Shown piece by piece: positions 32,833 through 32,910 of a DNA stretch of 64,000 nt. Within the stretch, counting starts at the first letter, position 1. Every line of letters begins with the position of its first letter. Both the position numbers and the translations under genes were made by a program. The notes under the pieces were generated by a model. The model saw only the letters and a program-made list of their open reading frames with translations, was not told the origin of the DNA and made no database searches. Origin of the DNA: a virus (Duplodnaviria; Heunggongvirae; Uroviricota; Caudoviricetes); the IMG/VR virus record IMGVR_UViG_2576861193_000002, one strand, 5' to 3'.

Positions 32833-32855
32833 AATGTTTACTCCTGAATACATGT

Positions 32856-32893
32856 TTACGCGTTGCTACGCGAAAAATAGAAAAATTCGTGAT
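32856..32893. repeat. conserved ~40-bp element (copy 2) upstream of portal
   Basis: TTTACGCGttgCTACGCGAAAAATAGAAAAATTC; about 34/40 identical to 20142-20181. Confidence 0.5.
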
Positions 32894-32910
32894 GGGTTGT
32901 GAGGCAGATT

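What the first reader, a model, noticed from the sequence alone, without database searches (positions are those of the whole stretch)
32854..32895. Conserved ~40-bp element repeated upstream of the portal and M genes
TTTACGCG-N3-CTACGCGAAAAAT-AGAAA-ATTC occurs at 32856-32893 and 20142-20181 (~34/40 identical), each 30-70 nt upstream of a late-gene start. In the mRNA it can form a short UUUUCGCG/CGCGUAAA stem-loop, suggesting a shared processing, translational-control or protein-binding site, or a homing-endonuclease target scar.
Basis: seen in the sequence. Interest (0 to 1): 0.45.

Follow-up and report, generated by a model that had tools for sequence, protein, structure and literature searches.

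The report
Conserved leader hairpin before two phage genes
A 38-base bulged hairpin sequence sits just upstream of the portal gene and the tail gene M of an mEp021-like E. coli prophage and hardly varies across the whole phage group, so it is almost certainly a working control signal, most likely in the messenger RNA, but what it does is not known.

Summary
The window is an mEp021-like (mEpimmI) temperate coliphage with its late genes on the minus strand. One ~38-41-nt element occurs exactly twice. Copy A lies in the 78-nt gap between the terL stop and the portal start. Copy B lies upstream of minor-tail gene M.

In relatives found through the portal or M proteins, not through the element, the 22 specified core bases have pi 0.002 (A) and 0.027 (B). 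Third codon positions have 0.23-0.33 and adjacent non-coding DNA 0.17-0.22, so the core is under strong purifying selection.

The conserved block reads as an imperfect 11-12-bp hairpin on the mRNA-sense strand:
- a UUU/AAA lower stem;
- a conserved one-base bulge;
- a CGCG/CGCG upper stem;
- a loop UAG+NNN in which only NNN varies.

The stem substitutions seen in copy B keep pairing as G.U in that strand only. There is no compensatory covariation, and the fold is not unusually stable.

Best reading (about 0.45): a cis-acting leader RNA hairpin, probably protein-recognised, that sets translation or stability of portal and M. It is not a nut site, terminator, promoter, Rfam family or NagC/Mlc or ops site. 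The homing-scar idea is unsupported. I found it only in this phage group, and it is not described in the searchable literature. Interest is moderate.

The parts
32846..32883 (-). Copy A of the element. It forms a bulged hairpin on the mRNA-sense strand: 5'-UAUUUUU CGCGU AGCA ACGCG U AAACAUG-3'.
   Evidence: Covariance-model hit of 61 bits, pattern hit, and fold and ensemble probability. Core pi is 0.002 in 46 haplotypes.
20132..20169 (-). Copy B of the element. It forms a bulged hairpin: 5'-CAUUUUU CGCGU AGAA GCGCG U AAAGAUG-3'.
   Evidence: Covariance-model hit of 63 bits, pattern hit, and consensus fold with 100% of cells paired. Core pi is 0.027 in 26 haplotypes.
32833..32854 (-). The rest of the portal leader. 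It holds the SD AGGAG (32845..32841) and an in-frame upstream ATG (32853..32851), and is almost invariant in relatives.
   Evidence: Sequence. Pi is 0.008 over -21..-1. The portal ATG is at 32832..32830.
32884..32910 (-). The variable 5' part of the terL-portal intergenic gap. About 30% of relatives carry a 70-nt insertion here, placed right after the terL stop codon (32911-32913).
   Evidence: pi 0.167.
20108..20131 (-). The rest of the M leader. It holds the SD GGGGG (20116..20112) and is variable in relatives.
   Evidence: Pi is 0.155.
20183..20211 (-). Promoter-like site upstream of copy B: GTGAAG-N17-TATAAT. The spacer contains the repeated motif GCCATTTTGTAAA. If the site is used, copy B lies about +12 to +50 of the transcript.
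   Evidence: Read from the sequence. TATAAT is invariant in the 26 haplotypes ascertained through the M protein; the metagenome hits add nothing, because their search pattern contained TATAAT. The motif is enriched in the window. The simple promoter scan did not flag this site, because its -35 matches only 3 of 6. That it is a promoter is inferred.
19532..19552 (.). Bidirectional terminator-like hairpin that closes the short M-gp70 unit downstream of copy B.

Best explanation
The element is a cis-acting RNA signal in the untranslated leaders of the portal and M messages. It consists of a U-tract followed by an imperfect hairpin: lower stem UUU/AAA, a conserved one-base bulge, upper stem CGCG(U)/(R)CGCG, and a loop whose 5' UAG is fixed and whose 3' bases are free. 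It sits at the 5' edge of the ribosome-binding region of two late genes that, unlike their neighbours, start after a non-coding gap and so cannot be translationally coupled. The most likely mechanism is that a protein (phage or host) recognises the hairpin by sequence, and that the hairpin sets how much portal and M is made through translation initiation and/or local mRNA stability. Portal and M are the low-copy initiator parts of head and tail assembly.

Shown here: two copies, the same orientation relative to the gene, extreme purifying selection, a hairpin-compatible anatomy, and stem substitutions in copy B tolerated only in the mRNA sense.

Inferred: that the RNA rather than the DNA is the active form, that a protein binds it, and the direction of the effect. 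Copy B probably arose when the opposite-strand gene island separated M from the tape-measure gene and M needed its own leader.
For: - Exactly two copies, both directly upstream of a late-gene ribosome-binding site on the coding strand.
- Sets ascertained by protein rather than by the element: the copy A site is present in 50 of 50 portal loci, 49 with the exact core and one with a single substitution, and the copy B site in 31 of 31 M loci with at least 85% identity, 24 with the exact core and 7 with a single change. It is also in all 23 metagenome loci found through the upstream promoter block.
- Core pi is 0.002 (A) and 0.027 (B), against 0.23-0.33 at third codon positions and 0.17-0.22 in adjacent non-coding DNA. 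The three loop bases are free, with pi 0.09-0.20.
- The conserved flanks are explained as the lower stem: (Y)AU...AUG and UUU...AAA.
- In copy B every stem substitution is one-sided and keeps a pair as G.U or U.G on the mRNA-sense strand, with 199 of 199 cells paired. On the other strand these would be C.A mismatches.
- The dyad is asymmetric in a conserved way. There is one extra base on the 3' arm, and UAG is fixed while its mirror positions are free. This fits a bulged RNA hairpin better than a symmetric duplex operator.
- The hairpin is predicted to form with probability 0.92-0.99 in seven of the eight leader variants folded.
- Copy A has no conserved promoter within 300 nt upstream: terL shows ordinary synonymous variation and the 5' part of the gap is hypervariable. 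Copy A must therefore be read inside the long Q-dependent late transcript.
Against: - No pair shows a compensatory double change, and the shuffle controls are uninformative.
- When A and B variants are pooled, 92.4% of stem cells pair. Two outer pairs are often unpaired, and one copy A variant breaks a UUU/AAA pair.
- The folding energy of the 51-nt and 101-nt leader windows folded is no better than that of shuffles, with z from +0.8 to -1.2.
- The hairpin-to-SD distance differs between copies: about 9 nt in A and about 24 nt in B.
- SD sequestration by the upstream U/C tract is predicted in A but not in B.
- No binding protein or processing site has been identified.
- The phage group is narrow and the element is absent from the next relatives, so there is little evolutionary depth.
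- A near-palindrome can equally be a duplex DNA site.
Confidence: 0.45

Rival explanations
1. The element is a duplex-DNA operator. A dimeric phage or host DNA-binding protein would bind the near-palindrome TTTTCGCGT-N4-ACGCGTAAA with its flanking phased A-tracts. At copy B it would sit just downstream of a promoter as a roadblock or repressor site. At copy A it would modulate passage of the late transcription complex.
For: The element is a 22-30-bp near-palindrome. Copy B lies 18 nt downstream of an invariant TATAAT, in a divergent control region rich in a repeated operator- or promoter-like motif. The stem sequence is conserved as sequence (always CGCG, never swapped), as expected for base-specific recognition.
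Against: The two half-sites differ in length by one base in every copy, and the conserved TAG has no conserved mirror partner. Copy A has no conserved promoter nearby. Both copies keep the same orientation and a position next to a ribosome-binding site, which a symmetric operator does not need. The substitutions tolerated in copy B are the ones that keep RNA pairing. No further half-sites or copies occur in the control regions of the genome.
Confidence: 0.2
2. The element acts on transcription elongation. It would be a nut-like or put-like leader RNA, or a pause hairpin, that modifies RNA polymerase so that it reads through the terminators scattered in the interrupted structural operon. The phage's N-like Gp17 or another factor might take part.
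For: The phage group uses an N-like antiterminator with three boxB hairpins of the same size class: GC stems with U-initiated 6-7-nt purine-rich loops. Copy B sits behind a promoter-like site, in the position that nutR2 and nutL occupy behind promoters of the same motif type. The late region contains several intrinsic terminators, and opposite-strand islands interrupt it.
Against: There is no boxA upstream. The loop is U-AGNN-R, whereas the three nut sites have U-GNRA-U/A. Q (PF03589) already provides late antitermination. The M-gp70 unit ends at a terminator and L has its own promoter-like region, so read-through is not obviously needed. At 38 nt the element is much smaller than my recollection of put RNAs (about 70 nt with two stem-loops).
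Confidence: 0.1
3. The element has no function of its own. It would be a duplication or recombination scar, a module-boundary 'linker', or the target or scar of a homing endonuclease.
For: The terL-portal and H-M junctions are insertion hotspots. ES18-like phages carry morons at the first, and other lambdoid tails carry a terminator-ended moron at the second. One relative has an HNH-AP2 gene inserted 3' of copy B. About 30% of relatives have a 70-nt insertion 5' of copy A. Loop alleles CAA and AAG occasionally appear at the 'wrong' locus, which suggests exchange between the copies.
Against: The core is more conserved than first and second codon positions while both flanks are variable, which a neutral scar cannot explain. 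The element is intact in all relatives, with or without nearby insertions. Homology does not extend beyond the hairpin block. The direct-repeat orientation at 12.7 kb would make recombination between the copies lethal.
Confidence: 0.07
4. The element is an internal promoter, or an activator site for late genes, that is recognised by a modified host polymerase.
For: The downstream flank RTRTAT and the T-run could be read as weak -10 and -35-like hexamers, and the palindrome would then lie in the spacer (my own reading).
Against: The promoter scans find nothing in the element on either strand. The best hexamers match at most 2-4 of 6. A transcript started there would begin at or inside the SD of the portal gene. 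The late regulator is a Q antiterminator, not a late activator.
Confidence: 0.05

Closest known systems
Lambda-type nut sites (boxA + boxB), including nutR1, nutR2 and nutL of mEp021 recognised by Gp17 (PMC11893012)
   Same: Short GC-clamped hairpin with a small purine-rich loop, repeated in the leaders of phage transcripts and conserved across the same phage group. The architecture suits recognition by a small RNA-binding protein.
   Different: The element has no boxA. Its loop is AGNN closed by U-A or U.G, not GNRA-like. It has a lower stem with a conserved bulge. It lies in the late structural region next to ribosome-binding sites rather than after early promoters.
Translational operator hairpins of phages (MS2 and PP7 coat-protein operators, T4 gene 32, gene 43 and RegA targets; from my own knowledge)
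   Same: A bulged stem-loop of about 20-35 nt at or near a ribosome-binding site, with sequence-specific loop and bulge positions and free positions elsewhere. Such hairpins control the amount of a structural or replication protein.
   Different: Those operators overlap the SD or start codon. Here the hairpin ends 9-24 nt upstream of the SD. No repressor protein is known. There are two targets, in head and tail genes of a temperate dsDNA phage.
5'-leader and intercistronic stabiliser or processing hairpins (ompA 5' stem-loop, T7 RNase III sites, intercistronic REP hairpins; from my own knowledge)
   Same: A conserved hairpin repeated between genes of a polycistronic phage message, preceded by an AU-rich single-stranded tract that resembles RNase E substrates.
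   Different: The stem is too short and too AU-rich for RNase III. The hairpin is not at the 5' end of the predicted transcript. The loop and stem are conserved as sequence, which a purely structural stabiliser does not need.
ops / JUMPStart elements that recruit RfaH (from my own knowledge)
   Same: A conserved ~40-nt element in the 5' leader of long operons; it shares the word GTAG.
   Different: Only 4 of the 12 ops positions (GGCGGTAGnnTG) match. ops acts as non-template DNA in a paused bubble and is 12 nt long, not a 38-nt hairpin.

Membership tests
Lambda-type nut site | A boxA (CGCTCTTTA-like) lies 5' of the hairpin. | tested here: not met
   The sequence upstream of both copies is T-rich (TTTTTCTATTTTT and ATTTCTCATTTTT). 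A boxA search finds sites at the phage's real nut sites but none near either copy.
Lambda-type nut site | The boxB loop is of the GNRA-like, adenine-rich type used by this phage's Gp17. | tested here: not met
   The nut loops are U-GGAAG-U, U-GAAA-U and U-GCGA-A. The element loops are U-AGCA-A and U-AGAA-G.
Intrinsic (rho-independent) terminator | A GC-rich hairpin is followed by a U-tract on the transcribed strand. | tested here: not met
   The T-run precedes the hairpin on the minus strand, and an A-run follows it on the plus strand. Neither copy is flagged by the terminator scan.
Sigma-70 promoter | -35 and -10 hexamers with 16-18-bp spacing lie inside the element. | tested here: not met
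   No hit on either strand at 20131-20181 or 32845-32895.
Any Rfam family | The match reaches the family's gathering score. | tested here: not met
   The best matches are 10-13 bits against gathering scores of 50-55, and they fall outside the element.
NagC/Mlc operator | Invariant TT and AA at positions -6,-5 and +5,+6 around the dyad centre (PMC4288165). | tested here: not met
   In the element the T and A runs lie at about +/-8 to 11 from the dyad centre, and CGCG occupies +/-4 to 7.
ops / JUMPStart (RfaH) | The 12-nt consensus GGCGGTAGnnTG (recalled from memory). | tested here: not met
   Only GTAG matches.
RNase III processing site | About 20 bp of mostly continuous duplex (recalled from memory). 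| tested here: not met
   The element has 11-12 bp including a bulge and, in copy A, a mismatch.
Homing-endonuclease target or scar | The site is disrupted or polymorphic in endonuclease-carrying genomes and intact in endonuclease-free genomes, and the endonuclease cleaves it. | tested here: inconclusive
   One relative has an HNH-AP2 gene 3' of copy B with the element intact. All other genomes have an intact element. Cleavage cannot be tested here.
Structured cis-regulatory leader RNA (generic kind) | Base pairs are maintained by compensatory changes. | tested here: inconclusive
   There are 0 double changes. In copy B, 5 of 10 pairs vary on one side and all 199 cells stay paired. With both copies pooled, 7 of 12 pairs vary on one side and 92.4% of cells are paired, and the shuffle controls do not discriminate.
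Structured cis-regulatory leader RNA (generic kind) | The element lies in the transcribed leader in the sense orientation and is conserved beyond neutral expectation. | tested here: met
   Both copies are on the coding strand, 22 and 33 nt from the start codons. Core pi is 0.002 and 0.027, against 0.23-0.33 at third codon positions.

The most novel reading that the evidence does not exclude
The hairpin is the operator of a so far unknown RNA-binding regulator (phage-encoded, or a host factor that the phage exploits). That regulator would co-ordinate synthesis of the head-assembly initiator (portal) and a tail-initiator component (M) in the mEpimmI phages. This would be a post-transcriptional head-tail balancing circuit of a kind I do not know from temperate siphoviruses. 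A variant of this reading is a second, boxA-less antitermination site class in the late operon.
Probability: 0.25. Interest if true: 0.6.

Novelty: new member of a known kind. Interest (0 to 1): 0.38.

Why it matters
Late-gene expression in lambda-like temperate phages is usually treated as one Q-antiterminated transcript whose protein ratios are set by translational coupling and RBS strength. Here the structural operon is broken up by opposite-strand accessory islands. Two genes that lost coupling carry the same very strongly conserved leader hairpin. If the hairpin is a regulated operator, it would show how such phages keep head and tail initiator proteins in balance. It would also provide a compact, portable RNA-protein pair. 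At the least, it corrects the annotated portal start and flags an unannotated functional non-coding element in a phage group that its describers report to be as common as lambdoid phages in human faecal samples (PMC11893012).

Tried and rejected
- More copies in the window: a pattern search with 3 mismatches, half-site searches and a covariance model with filters off found none.
- A complementary partner elsewhere in the window (trans RNA): nothing of 13 nt or more. One 12-nt match inside a plus-strand ORF was judged to be chance.
- Wider distribution:
  - A portal-protein scan of the species-representative genomes found no relative.
  - A relaxed DNA pattern in the same collection gave 79 hits in unrelated taxa. 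I estimate that about 140 are expected by chance, so these count as chance.
  - Among complete E. coli genomes, 48 of 5426 carry the element, on chromosomes only, with at most two places per genome.
  - ES18, CobraSix and S137 (portal 55-59% identical) lack it.
  - M homologues at 66-70% identity lack it.
- Rfam: no match.
- The NagC/Mlc operator lead was rejected on spacing.
- ops/RfaH, terminator, promoter (either strand) and RNase III site were rejected on anatomy (and my own reading).
- Leader peptide: the ATG in the element is in frame with portal but lacks an SD. It is replaced by ATA in most B copies, so it is not a shared feature.
- SD sequestration by the upstream U/C tract is predicted for A (0.2-0.98) but not for B (0-0.26), so it is not the shared function.
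- Similarity to the conserved leader upstream of the holin gene: only short words such as GTAAAC and TGTAACT are shared, so nothing convincing.
- Matching of the A and B loop alleles within a genome: none.
- Literature: the mEpimmI paper does not mention the element, and a sequence-string search of the paper library found nothing relevant.

Full report
**Setting.** A 6-kb stretch around copy A (window 30000-36000) is about 88-92% identical to Enterobacteria phage mEp021 and its relatives mEp515, mEp044, mEp013, mEp010, mEp554 and MagusPhagus. These belong to the 'mEpimmI' group of Nus-dependent, non-lambdoid temperate coliphages (PMC11893012). The morphogenesis genes are on the minus strand.

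Copy A lies in the 78-nt gap between the stop codon of the large terminase gene (32911-32913; Pfam Terminase_6C) and the portal start. The portal ATG is at 32832..32830, preceded by AGGAG at 32845..32841 (Pfam Phage_portal_3).

Copy B lies upstream of the minor tail gene M (ATG 20107..20105; Pfam Phage_min_tail). In this phage group M is separated from the tape-measure gene by a plus-strand accessory island. That island carries a ParE-like toxin pair and a zinc-finger/CapR/T5orf172 protein.

**The observation.** The 24-nt core occurs at 32855-32878 and 20141-20164 and nowhere else, even with three mismatches allowed; 0 matches are expected by chance. On the coding strand the copies share 36 of 41 aligned positions. 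A covariance model built from family variants scores the two copies at 63 and 61 bits, and nothing else in the window exceeds 13 bits. Similarity does not extend significantly beyond the block.

**Conservation.** An exact-pattern scan of IMG/VR returned 87 stretches. Almost all come from ~54-kb contigs with two copies each, in the same two contexts. That set is biased by the pattern, so I re-ascertained relatives by protein.
- Portal protein: 50 usable loci at 85-100% identity. Of these, 49 carry the exact core and one has a single substitution.
- M protein: 31 loci at 85% identity or more, all with the element. Of these, 24 are exact and 7 have single changes.
- A metagenome scan keyed on the promoter block 18 nt upstream of copy B: 23 loci, all with the element.

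Nucleotide diversity in the protein-ascertained sets is as follows.

| Region | Copy A set | Copy B set |
|---|---|---|
| 22 specified core bases | 0.002 | 0.027 |
| Three loop bases | 0.09 | 0.20 |
| Non-coding DNA just 5' of the core | 0.17 | 0.22 |
| Third codon positions of flanking genes | 0.23-0.27 | 0.33 |
| First and second codon positions | 0.016-0.05 | 0.06 |

The core is at least as constrained as protein-coding positions, so it is functional. In copy A the invariance continues through the SD to the start codon (pi 0.008). In copy B the 3' leader is variable (pi 0.155).

**Distribution.** The element is confined to this phage group.
- It is absent upstream of the portal genes of ES18, CobraSix and S137 (55-59% identical portals). 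In those phages the terL-portal gap holds small accessory genes, followed in ES18 and CobraSix by a terminator.
- It is absent upstream of M homologues at 66-70% identity.
- A relaxed pattern scan of one genome per bacterial species gave only hits in unrelated taxa, no more than I would expect by chance.
- Among complete E. coli genomes, 48 of 5426 carry it, on chromosomes only and with at most two places per genome.
- Rfam has no match.
- Neither the group's description paper nor a sequence-string search of the paper library mentions it.

**Anatomy.** On the mRNA-sense strand the conserved block folds into an imperfect hairpin with these parts:
- a lower stem (Y)AU(U)UUU / AAA(N)AU(R);
- one unpaired U on the 3' side;
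- an upper stem CGCG/CGCG closed by U-A (copy A) or U.G (copy B);
- a tetraloop AGNN, or equivalently a hexaloop UAG+NNN.

The upper stem is predicted to form with probability 0.92-0.99 in seven of the eight natural leader variants folded, and 0.47 in the eighth.

Variation within the family shows the following.
- In copy B, five of ten pairs vary, always on one side and always to another standard pair (A-U to G.U, U-A to U.G, C-G to U.G, G-C to G.U). All 199 cells are paired.
- When A and B are pooled, 92.4% of cells pair. Two outer pairs are often unpaired, and one copy A variant breaks a UUU/AAA pair.
- These transitions keep pairing only in the sense strand. In the antisense RNA they would be C.A mismatches.

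Two conserved asymmetries argue against a symmetric duplex operator. The 3' arm is one base longer than the 5' arm in every copy. The loop's UAG is fixed while its mirror positions are free.

Against the RNA reading, there is not one compensatory double change and the shuffle controls are uninformative. The folding energy is also ordinary, with z between +0.8 and -1.2. The RNA structure is therefore consistent and favoured, but not proven.

**Transcriptional context.** Copy A has no conserved promoter within 300 nt upstream. The terL 3' end shows ordinary synonymous variation. The 5' part of the gap is hypervariable, and about 30% of relatives carry a 70-nt insertion there. The late regulator is a Q-type antiterminator (PF03589). 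Copy A is therefore most probably read inside a long late transcript.

Copy B follows a promoter-like site, GTGAAG-N17-TATAAT, whose TATAAT is invariant in all 26 M-ascertained haplotypes. The spacer of this site contains a motif, GCCATTTTGTWWA, that recurs at other promoter-like sites of the phage. These include the sites in front of nutL and nutR2 and those upstream of the tape-measure and L genes. The M-gp70 unit ends at a bidirectional terminator at 19532-19552. That this site is a promoter is inferred, not shown.

**Mechanism.** The two sites share three things: the same strand sense, a position at the 5' edge of a ribosome-binding region, and a downstream gene that starts after a non-coding gap. 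A gene that starts after such a gap needs independent translation initiation. The sites do not share a promoter, so a DNA-level role in transcription initiation is unlikely.

I therefore favour a cis-acting leader RNA. Stem, bulge and loop 5' side are conserved as sequence rather than merely as structure, so the RNA is probably recognised by a protein. It would tune translation and/or local stability of the portal and M messages (confidence about 0.45). SD sequestration by the upstream U/C tract is predicted for copy A but not for copy B, so it is not the common mechanism.

Rivals and their rough weights:
- a duplex operator, about 0.2;
- a nut-like or pause element acting on elongation, about 0.1. 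The phage's real nut sites have boxA and U-GNRA-U/A loops, which the element lacks;
- a neutral scar, linker or homing target, about 0.07. The conservation pattern contradicts this, and the only link is a single HNH-AP2 insertion next to copy B in one relative;
- an internal promoter, about 0.05. No hexamers are found.

**Comparison with known systems.** The element works most like the small protein-binding hairpins of phage messages, such as boxB and the coat-protein or RegA-type translational operators. It fails every testable defining feature of nut sites, terminators, sigma-70 promoters, NagC/Mlc operators, ops, RNase III sites and all Rfam families. It is best filed as a new, family-specific member of the general kind 'conserved cis-regulatory leader hairpin'.

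**Verdict.** The feature is real and strongly selected, was found only in the mEpimmI phage group, and is not described in the searchable literature. Its function is still open and its interest is moderate. The decisive experiments are 5'-end mapping, compensatory-mutation reporters, inversion of the element, and RNA-versus-DNA binding assays with extracts of induced lysogens.

Noticed in passing
window 18575-18587(-), 20194-20206(-), 24040-24052(-)/24067-24079(+), 9488-9500(+)/9549-9561(-), 43380-43392(-)/43446-43458(+), 50995-51007(+), 51838-51850(+), 57667-57679(+): The motif GCCATTTTGTWWA is enriched: 27 hits at up to 2 mismatches, against 10.7 expected. It sits in promoter-like regions. 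At the PL-like promoter and at the nutR2 promoter it covers the spacer and the -10. It also occurs upstream of the tape-measure, M and L genes, next to the opposite-strand islands. It looks like a repeated promoter or operator type under common control, which would mean that parts of the tail operon have their own regulated promoters.
   Followed up: partly
window 32851-32853 versus 32830-32832 (minus strand): The GenBank mEp021 portal CDS starts at an upstream in-frame ATG that lies inside the element and has no SD, while the record's own RBS feature (AGGAG) then falls inside the CDS. The start 21 nt downstream is the likely true start.
   Followed up: partly
window 32812-32826 (minus strand), codons 3-7 of portal: A hairpin CCAAUU-UAG-AAUUGG lies directly after the portal AUG. 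Relatives keep a hairpin there with other sequences: CAAAU-UUAG-AUUUG, which includes a non-synonymous E-to-D change, and UUCAA-ACC-UUGAA. Synonymous diversity in the first 15 codons is about half that of the rest of the gene.
   Followed up: partly
window 20277-21754 (+) and 18769-19377 (+): Opposite-strand accessory islands interrupt the tail operon. The first holds a 51-aa ORF, a ParE-like toxin and a 319-aa protein with three treble-clef zinc fingers, CapR homology and a T5orf172 domain. The second holds a KilAC antirepressor fragment. Island content differs from that of mEp021.
   Followed up: partly
locus L078 (IMG/VR 2695420423_000006), minus strand, about 8724-9197 in reverse-complement coordinates: In one relative a 157-aa HNH-AP2 endonuclease gene is inserted between element B and the M gene and uses the element-containing leader. 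The window itself has a 188-aa ORF at 15983-16549 in the position of the 'putative HNH endonuclease' that mEp021 annotates between its I and J genes.
   Followed up: partly
relatives of window 32910/32911 (e.g. L008, L016, L040): About 30% of relatives carry a 70-nt insertion immediately after the terL stop codon. It contains the perfect palindrome CTTCGAAAAATTTTCGAAG.
   Followed up: no
window 50677-50710(-), 43326-43364(-), 51930-51967(+): These are the three nut sites of the N-like Gp17 system (boxA GCTCTTTAA-like plus boxB). The boxB loops read U-GGAAG-U, U-GAAA-U and U-GCGA-A, that is GNRA-type loops closed by U.U or U-A.
   Followed up: partly
window 37871-37960 (minus strand): A conserved ~90-nt block lies upstream of the holin gene and ends in a strong terminator (37889..37871), while the sequence further upstream is highly variable among relatives. 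It may be the late promoter leader with its terminator. A second strong minus-strand terminator lies at 39591..39572.
   Followed up: partly
window 11522-13022 and 52618-52728: The tail-fibre J gene contains 108-nt tandem repeats. Iteron-like direct repeats GGTAGTGGCA(C/G)A(A/G)AGCAACC lie beside the replication gene.
   Followed up: no
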